From a virus (lineage: Duplodnaviria > Caudoviricetes), in the IMG/VR virus record IMGVR_UViG_3300024346_000005: a stretch of DNA of 64,000 bases. One strand, written 5' to 3'. A program made the translations under genes and the position numbers. The notes under the pieces were generated by a model. It worked only from the letters and a program-made list of their open reading frames with translations. It searched no databases and had not been told where the DNA came from. Within the stretch, counting starts at the first letter, position 1. Every line of letters starts with the position of its first letter. Below are positions 38,428 through 41,901 of this stretch, in pieces.

Positions 38428-39243
38428 GTGCCTAGTATCCGCAGAATATCCGACTTTAAACCACTCTTCACGAATCTTGCACAGACTTCTCATTATGAAG
38501 TAAGATTTGGTGGTGTAGGACCTCTTGGGGGACCACTAATGGCATATCTTTTTCGTAAAGGAATTAGTCAAAGATTTATTGCCGAAGATGCTGGATTACT
38601 TTGTTTTTCGGCATCTCTTCCAACTACTTCTTTGGCAACTGCTAATGTTAGTGGGAACTTTATGGGTATAACGGAGAAGTTTGCACACACCAGACAATAT
38701 ATTCCAATCAGTCTAGAATTTTATGTAGATAAAAATTATAATGCTCTTAAATTTATGGAAAGTTGGATGGAGTTTATTGCAAGTGGTTCCAATAATCCAA
38801 TTGGAAGTAGTCTTGCTCCAATAGGGCAGAATCGTAAGGATTATATCTCTAGAATGCAATATCCAGAATATTATAAATCTGATAGAACTACAATCACAAA
38901 GTTTGATAGAGATTATAATAGAGAAATAGAATATACTTTTATTGGACTATTTCCATCGGCAATGTCATCAATTCCAGTAAGTTATAGTTCATCAGATATT
39001 CTTAAGATGTCGGTGACTTTTGAGTATGATCGTTATATTGCAGGTAAATCATTAAGTTTGAATGAAATTATTGGCAATAATAATAATCAAATCAATAATC
39101 AAATCAATAATAATAATCAAAGCAATAATCAAAGCAATAATCAAAGAGTTGTTTATAGAACTGGACAATCTCTTGGTGAAAGTGGAGTAAGAGGTACAAT
39201 TCCAAATCAAGGAAGTGTGTTTCCTACGATTTTAAATAATTGA
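38428..39243 (+). CDS. gp54/gp19-like tail-tube-fold protein (tube initiator-like)
   Basis: C.SASLP..SL...R.Y..ISL.FYVD..Y....F.E.W...I...YP..Y...I.KF...F.GLFP......VSY......L...VTF.Y.RY tube-fold pattern. Confidence 0.7.
   Translation: MPSIRRISDFKPLFTNLAQTSHYEVRFGGVGPLGGPLMAYLFRKGISQRFIAEDAGLLCFSASLPTTSLATANVSGNFMGITEKFAHTRQYIPISLEFYVDKNYNALKFMESWMEFIASGSNNPIGSSLAPIGQNRKDYISRMQYPEYYKSDRTTITKFDRDYNREIEYTFIGLFPSAMSSIPVSYSSSDILKMSVTFEYDRYIAGKSLSLNEIIGNNNNQINNQINNNNQSNNQSNNQRVVYRTGQSLGESGVRGTIPNQGSVFPTILNN
39073..39142 (+). repeat. 12-nt imperfect tandem repeat encoding an N/Q tract
   Basis: AATAATCAAATC x2 and AATAATCAAAGC x2 (NNQI NNQI NN NNQS NNQS NNQ). Confidence 0.75.
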
Positions 39244-39279: not shown

Positions 39280-39999
39280 ATGCCATTACCAAAAATTGCG
39301 GTGCCAACATATGAGTTGGAAGTTCCATCATTAAAAAAGAATATTAAGTATAGACCTTTTCTGGTTAAAGAAGAAAAGATTTTAATTATTGCGATGGAAA
39401 GTGAGGATACAAAACAAATTGCAGAAGCGGTAAAAACCGTAATTTCAAATTGTATTATTACGAAAGGAATCAAGGTAGAGCAACTATCAACTTTTGATAT
39501 TGAATATTTGTTCTTGAATGTCCGTGGAAAGTCAGTTGGAGAGTCGGTGGATGTTTTAATTACCTGCCCCGATGATGGAACCACACAAGTTCCAGTTTCA
39601 ATCAATCTGGATGAAATTAAAGTAAATGTAGATGAAAATCATTCAAAGGATATTAAACTTGATGATGTTCTAACTCTTCGTATGAAATATCCATCTATGC
39701 AGGAGTTCATTAAGAACAACTTTAATAATAATGAATCTGTGAGTGTAGATGATACTTTTGAGATGATTTCTGCCTGTGTAGAGCAGATTTATAGTGAAGA
39801 AGAATCTTGGAATGCTTCTGATACGACTAAAAAAGAACTAAATGAGTTTTTGGAACAACTTACTACTAATCAGTTTAAGGAAATTGAGAAGTTTTTTGAG
39901 ACGATGCCTAAACTTTCTTATACTATTAAATTGAAAAATCCAAATACTGATGTGGAAAGTGAGGTCATACTGGAGGGATTAACATCTTTTTTCGCCTAG
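39280..39999 (+). CDS. gp26: Baseplate hub assembly protein
   Basis: MPLPKI..PTYEL.......I.YRPFLVKEEKIL..A.ES...FDIEY.FL..R.KSVGE...L.GL.SFF. Confidence 0.9.
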   Translation: MPLPKIAVPTYELEVPSLKKNIKYRPFLVKEEKILIIAMESEDTKQIAEAVKTVISNCIITKGIKVEQLSTFDIEYLFLNVRGKSVGESVDVLITCPDDGTTQVPVSINLDEIKVNVDENHSKDIKLDDVLTLRMKYPSMQEFIKNNFNNNESVSVDDTFEMISACVEQIYSEEESWNASDTTKKELNEFLEQLTTNQFKEIEKFFETMPKLSYTIKLKNPNTDVESEVILEGLTSFFA

Positions 40000-40001
40000 G
40001 A

Positions 40002-40175
40002 ATGGCTCATACTTCGTTGGAGTCATACTATAAGACTACATTTCAGTTAATGCAGCATCATAAATATTCATTAACGGAGTTAGAAAATATGTTACCTTGG
40101 GAAAAAGAAGTTTATATTACTCTTCTTTCTCAATATATTGAAGAGCAAAATCTAAAGAACCAGCAGAATGGCTAG
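40002..40175 (+). CDS. gp51: Baseplate hub assembly catalyst (57 aa; not in ORF track)
   Basis: LESYYKTTFQLMQHHKYSLTELENMLPWEKEVYI.LL..YIEE.N motif. Confidence 0.85.
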   Translation: MAHTSLESYYKTTFQLMQHHKYSLTELENMLPWEKEVYITLLSQYIEEQNLKNQQNG

Positions 40176-41901
40176 TCTATCATCTCCAATTGGACCCACT
40201 ATAGATGTTGTGGCAAGAACAGTTTCTCGTTCTGTCATAAGTGGTGGTGCCGGTGGAGGTGGTGGTATTCCTGGTGGAGGTGGAGGAAGAGGTGGTGCTC
40301 TTGCCGTGCAACCTCAGGCAAGTTTAGTTAATGTTGAAAGAAATTTGGAGGTTCAAACTGTCCAAAATGTTCAACAAACTCAAGAGATTTCTGCTCTTAG
40401 AGGTACAGTAGATGCCTTACGAGCAGAAACCACAACTCTAAATAATGGTCTTGGAAATGTTTCTAATCTAATACAGCAAGATAGTGCCGTAGAGAAGCAA
40501 CAGGCATCGGCAGAAGCAGAAAGTGAAAGAAAACTTGCCGAAACAAATATTAGACTGGGGAAAGAATCTCAACTAGAACAAAAAATTACAAATGCTCTGG
40601 CAAAACCTGTTCAGGCTCTGCAGCAGAAAGTTGGTAATATATTTGGAAGAATAGGAGAGGCTCTAACTGCATTATTTGCCGGATGGTTGACTAATCAAGG
40701 AATAGAAGCACTTAAGGCAGCATCAGAAGGAAATAAAAACAAATTAGAAGAAATTAAAGATAATGTTCTTAAACATATTGGATTTGGCGTAGCTGCTATT
40801 GGTGCAATCAAAATAGGATTTGATTTGGTAATCAAAACTATTACTGGTATTACTGGAAAAATAGGTTCAATTTTACTTAAACTTGCCAAAGCTCCTCTAA
40901 AACTTTTAAGAAGTGCTCTTCAAGCTGCTCCATTAGTGGGAGGTCTTTTTGGTGGTCCAAAACCTGGTGGTCCAAAACCTCCTGCTGGACCTGGTGTAAA
41001 ACCTCCAGCATCAGGAAATCCAATTGCAAGAGGTGTGGGTGCAGTTGCCAATTTTGCTGGAAAAGCACTTACTGCTGTTGGTGGTGTTATGGATGCTGCA
41101 TCCGGGCAATATACAGACTCTGCTCTTGCCGCTGGTGCTTTACTTGCTCCCGGAGCACTCAAAATTCCTTTTGGTCTTGCATATGGTCTAGATTCAATTA
41201 GAGAAATGTTTGGTGGTAATATTTTTGGTAAAAATCCAAATGAACCAGAAAAACCACCAACAACACCAGCGGCAAAAGTCTTACCAACAACTCCTAAGGC
41301 AGGAAATCCAAAACCAGCACCAAAACCAGAAACACCACCACCAACAATAGTAGGACCAATAGAAGAACCAGCGGCAGCACCGGCAGCAGTGCAACCACAA
41401 AACTCTATGTTGTCTCAACCAATATCAGAGGCAGCACCAATATCTCAACCACAAACACCGGCAATTCCTCCACCAAGTCCCGAAATGGTGAAAAACTTTG
41501 AGATGGCTTGGAAATATAAAGATAACTCTATGGCAAGAGGAAGAATTGAGTCTGCCTGGAATAATATGACTTATGAACAGCAACAGCAGGCAAAGGAATG
41601 GGCAAAATCAACAGACAAGGATTGGACTGAAATGAAGTTGGTCGAAAAACCACCTACAGTCCAAGCAGTACCACTACCATCAGCACAGGTTCAACCACTT
41701 CCTAAACCCACTCAAAATGTAGGAGAACTTACTGAACCGGCACCGAATGTGGTAATGATGTCATCGGGTCAAAGTAACAATCAACAATCTTCTATTTCAC
41801 AGGCACCAACGAATGGAACCGATACTCCTTTGATTAGTTCTTCTAATCCTGATAATTTTTATGTTCTTTACTCTCAACTGAATTATAATGTGGTGATATA
41901 A
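40168..41901 (+). CDS. Tape-measure/baseplate-hub-like protein (coiled-coil N-half, Pro-rich C-half)
   Basis: Follows gp26/51. Has a heptad-rich segment, A/G-rich hydrophobic helices and a PAP/PKP-rich tail. Confidence 0.6.
   Translation: MASLSSPIGPTIDVVARTVSRSVISGGAGGGGGIPGGGGGRGGALAVQPQASLVNVERNLEVQTVQNVQQTQEISALRGTVDALRAETTTLNNGLGNVSNLIQQDSAVEKQQASAEAESERKLAETNIRLGKESQLEQKITNALAKPVQALQQKVGNIFGRIGEALTALFAGWLTNQGIEALKAASEGNKNKLEEIKDNVLKHIGFGVAAIGAIKIGFDLVIKTITGITGKIGSILLKLAKAPLKLLRSALQAAPLVGGLFGGPKPGGPKPPAGPGVKPPASGNPIARGVGAVANFAGKALTAVGGVMDAASGQYTDSALAAGALLAPGALKIPFGLAYGLDSIREMFGGNIFGKNPNEPEKPPTTPAAKVLPTTPKAGNPKPAPKPETPPPTIVGPIEEPAAAPAAVQPQNSMLSQPISEAAPISQPQTPAIPPPSPEMVKNFEMAWKYKDNSMARGRIESAWNNMTYEQQQQAKEWAKSTDKDWTEMKLVEKPPTVQAVPLPSAQVQPLPKPTQNVGELTEPAPNVVMMSSGQSNNQQSSISQAPTNGTDTPLISSSNPDNFYVLYSQLNYNVVI

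What the first reader, a model, noticed from the sequence alone, without database searches (positions are those of the whole stretch)
39987..40004. Slippery T-TTT-TTC at the end of gp26 puts gp51 in the -1 frame: a lambda G/GT-type frameshift in a T4-like phage?
Seen: gp26 ends TCT TTT TTC GCC TAG. A -1 slip on T TTT TTC (39987-39993) reads TTT CGC CTA GGA ATG GCT..., which is in frame with the 57-aa gp51 ORF with no stop between. The only SD-like AGGA directly abuts the gp51 ATG. Gene order is tube-fold gene > gp26 > gp51 > tape-measure-like genes. Established: many long-tailed phages make tail-assembly chaperones G and G-T by a -1 frameshift at exactly this position (lambda GGGAAAG, P2 TTTTTTG). 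Inference: gp26/gp51 are the G/T equivalents and a ~295-aa fusion is produced. I am not aware of this being described for T4-like cyanophages.
Basis: partly seen in the sequence, partly recalled or inferred. Interest (0 to 1): 0.72.

Follow-up and report, generated by a model that had tools for sequence, protein, structure and literature searches.

The report
Frameshift joining phage gp26 and gp51
One tail-assembly gene of this T4-like cyanophage very probably makes a short and a long protein, because some ribosomes slip back one base on a strictly conserved TTTTTTC run. Phage T4 makes the same pair from two separate genes (26 and 51), and the short form begins with the fold of the lambda/HK97-type tail assembly chaperones.

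Summary
gp26 (39280-39999, PF12322) ends TCT TTT TTC GCC TAG. The 57-codon 'gp51' ORF (40002-40175) lies in the -1 frame, open from the heptamer T_TTT_TTC (39987-39993).

Comparative evidence for a programmed -1 frameshift is strong:
- **Conservation.** 131 of 135 distinct junctions keep NNT TTT TTC, one codon, then stop. On a tree of 132 genes the heptamer never changes. A conserved internal Phe-Phe in the same gene changes codons at least 33 times and is never TTT-TTC.
- **Range.** The signal also occurs in Aeromonas (Aeh1-like), Vibrio (KVP40-like), Stenotrophomonas, Rhizobium, Agrobacterium, Acinetobacter and Desulfovibrio-type T4-likes.
- **No start codon.** In about a third of junctions, gp51's 'Met1' is a Leu codon, yet protein-level conservation runs on from the heptamer.
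- **T4 counterpart.** T4-type gp51 (250 aa) is a gp26-like PF12322 domain plus this C-terminal extension. The predicted 298-aa fusion aligns with it across the junction.
- **Fold.** The N-terminal ~90 residues of gp26 match the three solved tail-assembly-chaperone structures best of 48,161 PDB chains (Z 7.3-7.9).

There is no protein-level proof, and I found no paper reporting the frameshift. This scan has noted the same signal before in at least 23 other genomes.

The parts
38428..39243 (+). Tail-tube-fold gene (271 aa) directly upstream, in the position of the major tail/tube gene in G/GT-type modules
   Evidence: PF23849 Phage_TTP_2 E 1.4e-16; phrog_45 tail tube E 1.7e-42
39280..39999 (+). 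gp26, the 0-frame product (239 aa, 27.3 kDa). It has an N-terminal tail-assembly-chaperone-like domain (about residues 1-95) and a second domain.
   Evidence: PF12322 E 2.4e-73 and phrog_150 E 5.7e-81. AlphaFold2 model pLDDT 95.1. Top structural matches are 3fgx_B Z 7.9, 2ob9_B Z 7.7 and 3klu_A Z 7.3.
39972..39977 (+). GGAGGG, a Shine-Dalgarno-like element 9 nt upstream of the heptamer; a possible frameshift stimulator (inferred)
   Evidence: The Glu codon here is GAG in 99 of 132 junctions (GAA in 29), against 31% GAG elsewhere in the gene. The spacing resembles the dnaX stimulator (from memory).
39987..39993 (+). Slippery heptamer T_TTT_TTC (X_XXY_YYZ), the proposed site of tandem -1 slippage of two tRNA-Phe
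   Evidence: In register in 131 of 135 unique junctions; 0 changes on a tree of 132 genes; the preceding codon varies (TCT, AGT, GCT, AAT, GAT) but always ends in T
39997..39999 (+). TAG stop of gp26, one codon after the heptamer
   Evidence: Spacing is 1 codon in the survey set and 0-2 codons in distant T4-likes.
39993..40175 (+). Trans-frame (-1) part of the predicted gp26-51 fusion: 60 codons plus stop. The fusion is 238 + 60 = 298 aa, 34.5 kDa.
   Evidence: It aligns across the junction with T4-type gp51 (residues 76-285 against 64-246, E 4e-5).
40002..40175 (+). ORF annotated in relatives as 'gp51 baseplate hub assembly catalyst' (57 aa). It corresponds only to the C-terminal ~50 residues of T4 gp51 (Gp51_C).
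   Evidence: phrog_634 E 1.8e-25, profile positions 60-115 of 121. Relatives carry PF28602 Gp51_C. [quoted passage not shown]
39997..40030 (+). Hairpin: a 7-bp stem 40002-40008 with 40020-40026 and an 11-nt loop, plus outer pairs 39997-39999 with 40028-40030. It starts 8 nt after the heptamer and sequesters the gp51 AUG. It is lineage-specific.
   Evidence: MFE -10.1 kcal/mol. In the 90 junctions that have the ATG, 62 form all 7 pairs, with a U-A to G-C compensatory switch (48 against 24). The mean is 6.0 pairs against 1.7-4.0 for slid controls. The hairpin is absent from the 42 junctions without the ATG.
40168..41901 (+). Downstream 577-aa Gly-rich protein of no known family. A tape-measure role is suggested only by position and size.
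   Evidence: No Pfam family. PDB sequence hits are only Gly-rich artefacts. The Atlas model has pLDDT 0.48 and no named relatives.

Best explanation
Most ribosomes translating gp26 read TTT TTC GCC and terminate at TAG 39997, giving the 239-aa gp26. A minority slip back one base on T_TTT_TTC (39987-39993): the two tRNA-Phe re-pair with UUU UUU. Those ribosomes continue in the -1 frame through the 'gp51' ORF and make a 298-aa gp26-51 fusion. This fusion, not the 57-aa ORF, is the full-length counterpart of T4 gp51. The pair gp26 and gp26-51 works like lambda G/GT or HK97 gp13/gp13-14. The two chaperone forms share a TAC-fold N-terminus, and the rarer long form carries a helical C-terminal extension (Gp51_C) that presumably tethers a further hub or tube component during baseplate-hub and tape-measure assembly. 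The signal, its conservation, start-less extensions in many relatives, collinearity with T4 gp51 and the TAC-like fold are shown here. That the slip occurs, its efficiency and the binding partners are inferred.
For: (1) Anatomy. The heptamer is canonical and in register, sits one codon before the stop, and the -1 ORF is open from it. In S-RIM8 and ACG-2014f the window in which a -1 shift can give the fusion is only 13 nt. (2) Conservation beyond coding need. 131 of 135 unique junctions keep NNT TTT TTC, one codon, then stop. The preceding residue varies (S, A, N, D) but its third base is always T. The terminal Phe-Phe is TTT-TTC in 131 of 131. The conserved internal Phe-Phe (FFxxMP) in the same genes is TTC-TTT 67, TTT-TTT 53, TTC-TTC 5 and TTT-TTC 0. 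On a tree of 132 genes the minimum numbers of changes are: heptamer 0, internal FF codons 33, codon before the heptamer 24, codon after it 53, stop codon 11. (3) Distant T4-likes with 23-31% gp26 identity keep the signal: Aeh1-like Aeromonas phages, KVP40-like Vibrio phages, Stenotrophomonas Yut2, Rhizobium RHph_Y68 (TTTTTTG), Acinetobacter SH-Ab 15599 and C48C1 (TTTTTTT), S-H34, SRB7757 and OLIVR6. (4) Start-less extensions. 42 of 132 junctions have a Leu codon (CTN or TTA) where the window has ATG, with at least 10 independent switches. 14 of the 42 also lack the next Met. Even so, codon-periodic, protein-level conservation runs on from the heptamer. Annotators start gp51 at an internal Met or miss it altogether. 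(5) T4-type gp51 matches PF12322 over residues 1-201 (E 1.2e-55) and then carries a C-terminal extension. A fused ORF (P0014) and the window's predicted fusion both align collinearly with it across the junction (E 7e-12; E 4e-5). P-SSM2, S-RIM8 and an Aeh1-like 233-kb genome each have one PF12322 gene; T4-type REP3 has two. Where gene 51 is separate, the Phe-Phe codons are not slippery (TTC TTT in REP3, TTC CTT in a Krischvirus). [quoted passage not shown] (7) Fold. Of 48,161 PDB chains, the only three with Z >= 5 against the window's gp26 model are 3fgx_B (Z 7.9, 86 aligned), 2ob9_B, which is HK97 gp13 (Z 7.7, 85 aligned), and 3klu_A, YqbN (Z 7.3). The next row is Z 4.9 (repeating). PMC9603447 names these three as tail assembly chaperones. 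HK97 gp13 is itself annotated with a -1 frameshift. (8) T4 gp26 and gp51 are listed as hub assembly chaperones, and gp51 is absent from the particle (PMC3004832).
Against: No protein, ribosome-profiling or reporter data exist for the fusion, and the efficiency is unknown. The window has its own ATG at 40002, two bases after the stop, so a free 57-aa product made by termination-reinitiation cannot be excluded and may coexist with the fusion. No stimulatory RNA structure is universal: the hairpin is confined to lineages that have the ATG, and the SD-like GAG preference is not corrected for shared ancestry. Vibrio phage K369 lacks the heptamer and starts its Gp51_C ORF with an ATG overlapping the stop (TAATG), so the extension can apparently be encoded as a separate peptide. 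The single-ORF fusions in metagenomes (P0004 with T7, P0021 with T4) come from nanopore/pilon assemblies and are probably homopolymer errors. The TAC match has moderate Z (below 8), and no sequence-level similarity to HK97 gp13 is detectable.
Confidence: 0.88

Rival explanations
1. gp51 is made only as a free 57-aa protein, by independent initiation or termination-reinitiation at ATG 40002. On this view the U-run is conserved for another reason, such as a U-rich ribosome standby or S1 site, or the C-terminal Phe-Phe of gp26.
For: The window and 90 of 132 junctions have an ATG two bases after the stop, a spacing that suits coupled reinitiation. Vibrio phage K369 uses a TAATG overlap with no heptamer.
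Against: 42 of 132 junctions have CTN or TTA in place of the ATG, 14 of these also lack the next Met, and several distant phages have no start codon at all, yet the peptide stays conserved from the heptamer onward. The ATG sits inside a conserved hairpin, and AGGA abuts it with no spacer. A protein-level need for Phe-Phe does not explain the invariant codon choice or the invariant third-position T of a variable residue. T4 gp51 is a gp26-like domain fused to this peptide.
Confidence: 0.07
2. The fusion is made by transcriptional slippage: RNA polymerase adds one U in the T6 run, rather than the ribosome slipping.
For: A T7 mRNA would encode the same fusion. Two assemblies carry T7 or T4 at this site.
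Against: Six T is shorter than the runs of about 8-9 known to give efficient transcriptional slippage (from memory). Selection keeps ...TC (Z = C) rather than lengthening the run in 131 of 131 junctions. RNA-library contigs of relatives cross the site with no inserted base; this is weak evidence, because contigs drop rare variants.
Confidence: 0.03
3. It is a chance arrangement or an assembly artefact with no recoding.
For: TTTTTTC is common in this AT-rich window: 28 found, 31 expected.
Against: The same in-register signal occurs in more than 130 distinct sequences, including finished isolate genomes from several virus families.
Confidence: 0.01

Closest known systems
Lambda gpG/gpGT, HK97 gp13/gp13-14 and P2 E/E+E': the conserved -1 frameshift in tail assembly chaperone genes (Xu, Hendrix and Duda 2004, Mol Cell 16:11, cited in PMC9024508; the HK97 record annotates the frameshift)
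   Same: A -1 slip on an X_XXY_YYZ heptamer near the 3' end of a gene that follows a tube-fold gene. A short and a C-terminally extended product share one N-terminus. The N-terminal domain of gp26 has the fold of HK97 gp13 (Z 7.7) and of the two other solved chaperones. The T4 homologues are assembly chaperones, and gp51 is absent from the virion (PMC3004832).
   Different: There is no detectable sequence similarity to HK97 gp13 (hhalign probability 0.1) and no match to any Pfam chaperone family. gp26 is larger (239 aa) and carries a second domain that holds a Cys-pair zinc-ribbon motif in many relatives. The extension is short (60 aa). The T4 proteins are assigned to baseplate-hub assembly, and binding to a tape measure or tube protein is untested. 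The tape-measure identity of the downstream gene is not shown.
Phage T4 gp26 (208 aa) and gp51 (249-250 aa), 'hub assembly chaperones' (Leiman et al. 2010, PMC3004832)
   Same: Same family: PF12322 at E 2.4e-73 for the window, 2.5e-63 for T4-type gp26 and 1.2e-55 for T4-type gp51. The predicted fusion is collinear with T4 gp51, junction and C-terminal extension included. T4 gp26 also ends ...GLKEFFEL.
   Different: T4 encodes the short and long forms as two diverged, divergently transcribed paralogues with no frameshift and non-slippery Phe codons. Here, and in most T4-likes outside the T-evens, a single gene plus recoding yields both.
E. coli dnaX -1 frameshift (A_AAA_AAG with an upstream SD-like element and a downstream hairpin); recalled from memory
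   Same: A heptamer with an SD-like GGAGGG 9 nt upstream and, in this lineage, a hairpin 8 nt downstream.
   Different: Neither stimulator is universal in the family, and neither has been tested. In dnaX the shifted product is the shorter one; here it is the longer one.

Membership tests
Programmed -1 ribosomal frameshift cassette (tandem slippage) | An X_XXY_YYZ heptamer in the 0-frame register | tested here: met
   T_TTT_TTC at 39987-39993, read as TCT TTT TTC
Programmed -1 ribosomal frameshift cassette (tandem slippage) | A -1 frame ORF open from the heptamer and encoding a conserved polypeptide | tested here: met
   No stop from 39993 to 40175. Codon-periodic conservation in the -1 frame starts at the heptamer, including in the 42 junctions with no start codon.
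Programmed -1 ribosomal frameshift cassette (tandem slippage) | The signal is conserved at synonymous sites beyond what the protein needs | tested here: met
   0 changes of the heptamer against at least 33 at the internal Phe-Phe on the same tree; codon counts
Programmed -1 ribosomal frameshift cassette (tandem slippage) | A stimulatory element (upstream SD-like sequence or downstream structure) | tested here: inconclusive
   GGAGGG lies 9 nt upstream, with GAG enriched (99 of 132 junctions, against 31% elsewhere). A hairpin with one compensatory pair occurs only in lineages that have the ATG. RNAalifold finds no structure shared by all.
Programmed -1 ribosomal frameshift cassette (tandem slippage) | The trans-frame protein is detected | not testable with these tools
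   Needs mass spectrometry, a Western blot or a reporter assay
G/GT-type tail assembly chaperone pair | Tail assembly chaperone fold | tested here: met
   Residues 1-96 of the window's gp26 model (pLDDT 95) match 3fgx_B Z 7.9, 2ob9_B (HK97 gp13) Z 7.7 and 3klu_A Z 7.3. These are the only chains of 48,161 with Z >= 5, and the proxy model gives the same top three. PMC9603447 names all three as chaperones. The Z values are moderate.
G/GT-type tail assembly chaperone pair | Lies between the tube gene and the tape measure gene | tested here: inconclusive
   The upstream tube-fold gene is confirmed (PF23849). The downstream 577-aa gene has no family. The next gene has a lysozyme domain and a weak tape-measure phrog hit.
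G/GT-type tail assembly chaperone pair | Sequence similarity to a named chaperone family (not required: these chaperones are very diverse) | tested here: inconclusive
   No Pfam chaperone family at E <= 10 for T4-type gp26, T4-type gp51 or the fused ORF P0014. hhalign of the gp26 profile against the single HK97 gp13 sequence gives probability 0.1. This is a weak test.
G/GT-type tail assembly chaperone pair | Both forms act in assembly, bind the tape measure and tube proteins, and are absent from virions | not testable with these tools
   For the T4 homologues, PMC3004832 lists gp26 and gp51 as chaperones and gp51 as absent from the particle. Partners are unknown.
T4 gp26/gp51 family (PF12322 T4_baseplate plus Gp51_C) | PF12322 domain | tested here: met
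   E 2.4e-73, profile positions 2-219 of 219
T4 gp26/gp51 family (PF12322 T4_baseplate plus Gp51_C) | A Gp51_C extension collinear with T4 gp51 | tested here: met
   phrog_634 E 1.8e-25. The fusion aligns with T4-type gp51 across the junction, as does P0014. Relatives carry PF28602.

The most novel reading that the evidence does not exclude
T4-like phages are not an exception to the near-universal G/GT tail-assembly-chaperone frameshift. The ancestral state of the whole T4 superfamily would be one TAC-fold gene (gp26) that makes a short form and a frameshift-extended form. T4's enigmatic essential 'catalytic' gp51 would then be the GT equivalent, fixed as a duplicated gene in the T-even lineage, and gp26 and gp51 would chaperone the gp29 tape measure and hub.
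Probability: 0.6. Interest if true: 0.85.

Novelty: new member of a known kind. Interest (0 to 1): 0.78.

Why it matters
It would correct the annotation of a core gene in hundreds of cyanophage and other T4-like genomes. The 57-aa 'gp51' is not a stand-alone gene product but the tail of a 298-aa protein. It also explains two anomalies published in 2010: the truncated gp51 of cyanophages and marine vibriophages, and the 'missing' gp51 of Aeh1. It gives a testable function for T4 gp26 and gp51, which have been essential hub-assembly factors of unknown mechanism since the 1970s: they would be the T4 counterparts of the lambda G/GT chaperones. Finally, it offers a natural case in which recoding in most lineages and gene duplication in the T-evens solve the same problem.

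Tried and rejected
- **Complex prediction.** Complex prediction of the 57-aa gp51 ORF with the upstream tube-fold protein gave no verdict (score 0.01). It says nothing either way.
- **Foldseek against PDB.** Nothing at E <= 0.001 for the fused proxy model. The chaperone matches came only from the exhaustive VIA search.
- **hhalign.** The gp26 profile against HK97 gp13 showed no similarity.
- **Consensus RNA structure.** RNAalifold over all junctions, and over the subsets without the ATG, found no shared downstream structure.
- **Fused ORFs in metagenomes.** The single-ORF gp26-gp51 fusions (P0004 and P0021) are not accepted as support. They are singleton nanopore/pilon contigs with T7 or T4 in place of T6.
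- **RNA-library contigs.** Contigs laid on the locus cross the heptamer with no inserted base. They are contigs of about 93%-identical relatives, cannot show rare variants and may contain DNA, so they neither prove transcription nor exclude RNA-level slippage.
- **Own assembly.** The window's own assembly is not held, so copy number of PF12322 was checked in related complete genomes instead.
- **The 577-aa downstream protein.** Its identity was not resolved. PDB sequence hits are Gly-rich artefacts, and the Atlas gave no named relatives.
- **Promoter and terminator scan.** Nothing above shuffled expectation.
- **Literature.** Searches for gp26/gp51 with frameshift, ribosomal slippage, tail assembly chaperone or paralog found no report of this signal. 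Subscription-only papers were not searched.
Full report
**Observation.** The window reads TCT TTT TTC GCC TAG GA ATG at 39985-40004.
- ORF 39280-39999 (239 aa) is a T4 gp26 homologue: PF12322 T4_baseplate E 2.4e-73, phrog_150 E 5.7e-81.
- ORF 40002-40175 (57 aa) matches phrog_634, 'baseplate hub assembly catalyst' (gp51), at E 1.8e-25. The match covers only positions 60-115 of that 121-position profile.
- The second ORF is in the -1 frame of the first. A slip on T_TTT_TTC (39987-39993) reads CGC CTA GGA ATG... with no stop.
- The result is a 298-aa, 34.5-kDa fusion with the junction ...EGLTSFF|RLGMAHTSLESYYK.
- The upstream gene 38428-39243 is a tail-tube fold (PF23849). AGGA directly abuts the ATG.
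- TTTTTTC alone is as common in the window as chance predicts: 28 found, 31 expected. The case therefore rests on register, position and conservation.

**Conservation.** I collected the junction from:
- 79 usable IMG/VR loci close to the window (77-100% gp26 identity);
- 80 marine loci around S-RIM8;
- four Aeromonas-phage records;
- isolate genomes.

Of 135 distinct junctions, 131 have NNT TTT TTC, exactly one codon, then a stop. The four exceptions are:
- a T4-type phage;
- Vibrio phage K369;
- two nanopore/pilon contigs whose T-run is T7 or T4, which creates a single fused ORF. These are probably homopolymer errors and I do not use them as evidence.

The residue before the heptamer varies (Ser from TCT or AGT, Ala from GCT, Asn from AAT, Asp from GAT), but its third base is T in 131 of 131. 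The following codon takes 17 forms, and the stop is TAG, TGA or TAA.

There is an internal control. The conserved FFxxMP dipeptide in the same genes is TTC-TTT 67 times, TTT-TTT 53 times, TTC-TTC 5 times and never TTT-TTC. The terminal Phe-Phe is TTT-TTC 131 times out of 131.

Minimum numbers of changes on a FastTree of 132 gp26 sequences, built without the last four codons:

| Feature | Minimum changes |
|---|---|
| Heptamer | 0 |
| Internal Phe-Phe codons | 33 |
| Codon before the heptamer | 24 |
| Codon after the heptamer | 53 |
| Stop codon | 11 |

**Range.** The signal extends well beyond cyanophages:

| Phage | End of gp26 | Start codon for the extension |
|---|---|---|
| Aeromonas phiWae14 and three Aeh1-like genomes | GAT TTT TTC GAY or GCC TGA | none until an internal Met |
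| KVP40-like Vibrio XZ1 and 1.081.O | GAT TTT TTC GTN TAA | ATG overlapping the stop (TAATG) |
| Stenotrophomonas Yut2 | GAT TTT TTC GGC TGA | ATG overlapping the stop (TGATG) |
| Rhizobium RHph_Y68 | GAT TTT TTG CAC TGA | ATG overlapping the stop (TGATG) |
| Acinetobacter SH-Ab 15599 | GAT TTT TTT ATC TGA | none; no gp51 annotated |
| Kyanoviridae C48C1 | GAT TTT TTT TAA | none at the N-terminus; annotated gp51 is a late-starting 34-aa ORF |
| S-H34 | GAT TTT TTC TAG | ATG six codons into the -1 frame |
| Nitratidesulfovibrio SRB7757 | GAT TTT TTC ATC TAG | none |
| Agrobacterium OLIVR6 | GAT TTT TTC TCC TCC TGA | none until an internal Met |

These gp26 proteins are only 23-40% identical to the window's. 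Among the 120 full-length best representatives of the family (4,584 clusters at E <= 0.001), 91 end in FF plus 0-2 residues. Most of the rest end in [S/D]FL plus one residue.

**The extension often has no start codon.**
- In 42 of 132 unique junctions the codon aligned with the window's ATG is CTC, CTA, CTT, CTG or TTA (Leu). 14 of these also lack the next Met.
- Met and Leu have interchanged at least 10 times on the tree. That is how an internal hydrophobic residue behaves, not an initiator.
- In the start-less set, variation is still concentrated at third positions of the -1 frame from the heptamer onward. His, Leu, Tyr, Asn and Phe columns are nearly invariant.
- In S-RIM8 and ACG-2014f the -1 frame opens only 13 nt before the end of gp26, so the heptamer is essentially the only place where a shift can give the fusion.
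- Annotators have started 'gp51' at an internal Met (S-RIM8, phiWae14, C48C1, OLIVR6, 1.081.O) or missed it altogether.

**Link to T4.**
- In a T4-type genome (REP3), genes 26 and 51 are divergently transcribed.
- Its 250-aa gp51 matches the gp26 family profile PF12322 end to end over residues 1-201 (E 1.2e-55). It then carries a ~48-residue extension.
- The window's predicted fusion aligns collinearly with it across the junction: residues 76-285 against 64-246, E 4e-5. So does the fused ORF P0014: residues 23-271 against 15-244, E 7e-12.
- Complete genomes of P-SSM2, S-RIM8 and an Aeh1-like phage hold one PF12322 gene; the T4-type genome holds two.
- Where gene 51 is separate, the C-terminal Phe codons of gp26 are not slippery: TTC TTT in REP3, TTC CTT in a Krischvirus.
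- Sullivan et al. 2010 (PMC3037559) noted, without explanation, that cyanophage and marine vibriophage gp51 lack the first ~200 residues and that gp51 is 'missing only in Aeh1'. The frameshift accounts for both.
- Leiman et al. 2010 (PMC3004832) list gp26 (23.9 kDa) and gp51 (29.3 kDa) as hub assembly chaperones, and gp51 as absent from the particle.

**Link to G/GT.**
- AlphaFold2 models of the window's gp26 (pLDDT 95.1) and of a fused proxy (pLDDT 87) were compared with 48,161 PDB representatives without Foldseek pre-filtering.
- Both times the top three were 2ob9 (HK97 tail assembly chaperone gp13), 3fgx and 3klu (YqbN). Z was 7.3-7.9 over 84-86 residues, covering most of each target. For the window's model the next row is Z 4.9, and only these three exceed Z 5.
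- PMC9603447 identifies exactly these three entries as phage tail assembly chaperones.
- HK97 gp13 is itself the upstream partner of an annotated -1 frameshift.
- The lactococcal phage p2 tape-measure chaperone ORF12 (3d8l; its role recalled from memory) also appears lower down, at Z 3.0.
- The Z values are moderate, and sequence-level similarity is undetectable. I therefore read this as a shared fold and probable distant homology of the N-terminal ~95 residues, not as proof.
- In the proxy model the Gp51_C part forms helices, with a long terminal helix at 261-293. It is joined to the gp26 body by a low-confidence linker.

**Possible stimulators.**
- GGAGGG (39972-39977) lies 9 nt upstream of the heptamer. 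The Glu codon inside it is GAG in 99 of 132 junctions, against 31% elsewhere in the gene.
- A 7-bp hairpin (40002-40008 with 40020-40026) begins 8 nt downstream and contains the gp51 AUG.
- Among the 90 junctions with the ATG, 62 form all seven pairs, with a U-A to G-C compensatory switch. The 42 junctions without the ATG do not form it.
- Both elements are plausible lineage-specific modulators. Neither is universal.

**Verdict.** A programmed -1 ribosomal frameshift that makes gp26 and a gp26-51 fusion is by far the best explanation (about 0.88).
- It is a new member of the known class of frameshifting tail-assembly-chaperone genes, found in the one major tailed-phage group where that class had not been recognised.
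- I found no paper that reports it.
- This scan had already flagged the same signal in at least 23 other genomes. I reached my reading before consulting those notes and tested their claims independently.
- What is missing is direct detection of the fusion protein and of its partners.

Noticed in passing
window 39076-39146: The C-terminal part of the tube-fold gene holds an Asn/Gln-rich, imperfectly repeated stretch (AAT AAT CAA ATC... encoding NNNNQINNQINNNNQSNNQSNNQR). It is low-complexity sequence of unknown role.
   Followed up: no
window 40168-40175 and 40230-40300: The 577-aa downstream gene starts 8 nt before the gp51 stop (ATGGCTAG overlap). It opens with a long Gly-rich run (GGAGGGGGIPGGGGGRGGA). 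It has no family, and its Atlas model is poorly folded.
   Followed up: partly
L090:1501-2400 and L091:1501-2400: Two ENA nanopore/pilon phage contigs carry T7 or T4 in place of T6 at the slip site. This gives single 299-aa gp26-gp51 ORFs (P0004, P0021). Both lengths restore the fusion frame. They are probably homopolymer errors, but real fused variants cannot be excluded.
   Followed up: partly
L088:1983-2900 (Vibrio phage K369): This clade lacks the heptamer (TCA CTT TTC AAG TAA TG). It starts a Gp51_C-like 60-aa ORF with an ATG overlapping the gp26 stop. It is a possible third solution, a free peptide, beside the frameshift and the T4-type gene duplication.
   Followed up: partly
L086, L089, L179, L181, L182, L183, L185: Public records of S-RIM8, phiWae14, C48C1, OLIVR6 and Vibrio 1.081.O start 'gp51' at an internal Met. 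SH-Ab 15599 has no gp51 annotated, and the SRB7757 record carries no annotation at all. No record seen annotates ribosomal slippage here.
   Followed up: yes
window 39280-39570 (gp26 residues 6-92): ORF19 of the Vibrio cholerae PICI-like element (5ir0_B) is the next-best structural match after the three tail assembly chaperones (Z 4.9, 84 residues). It may be a satellite-encoded chaperone-like protein.
   Followed up: no
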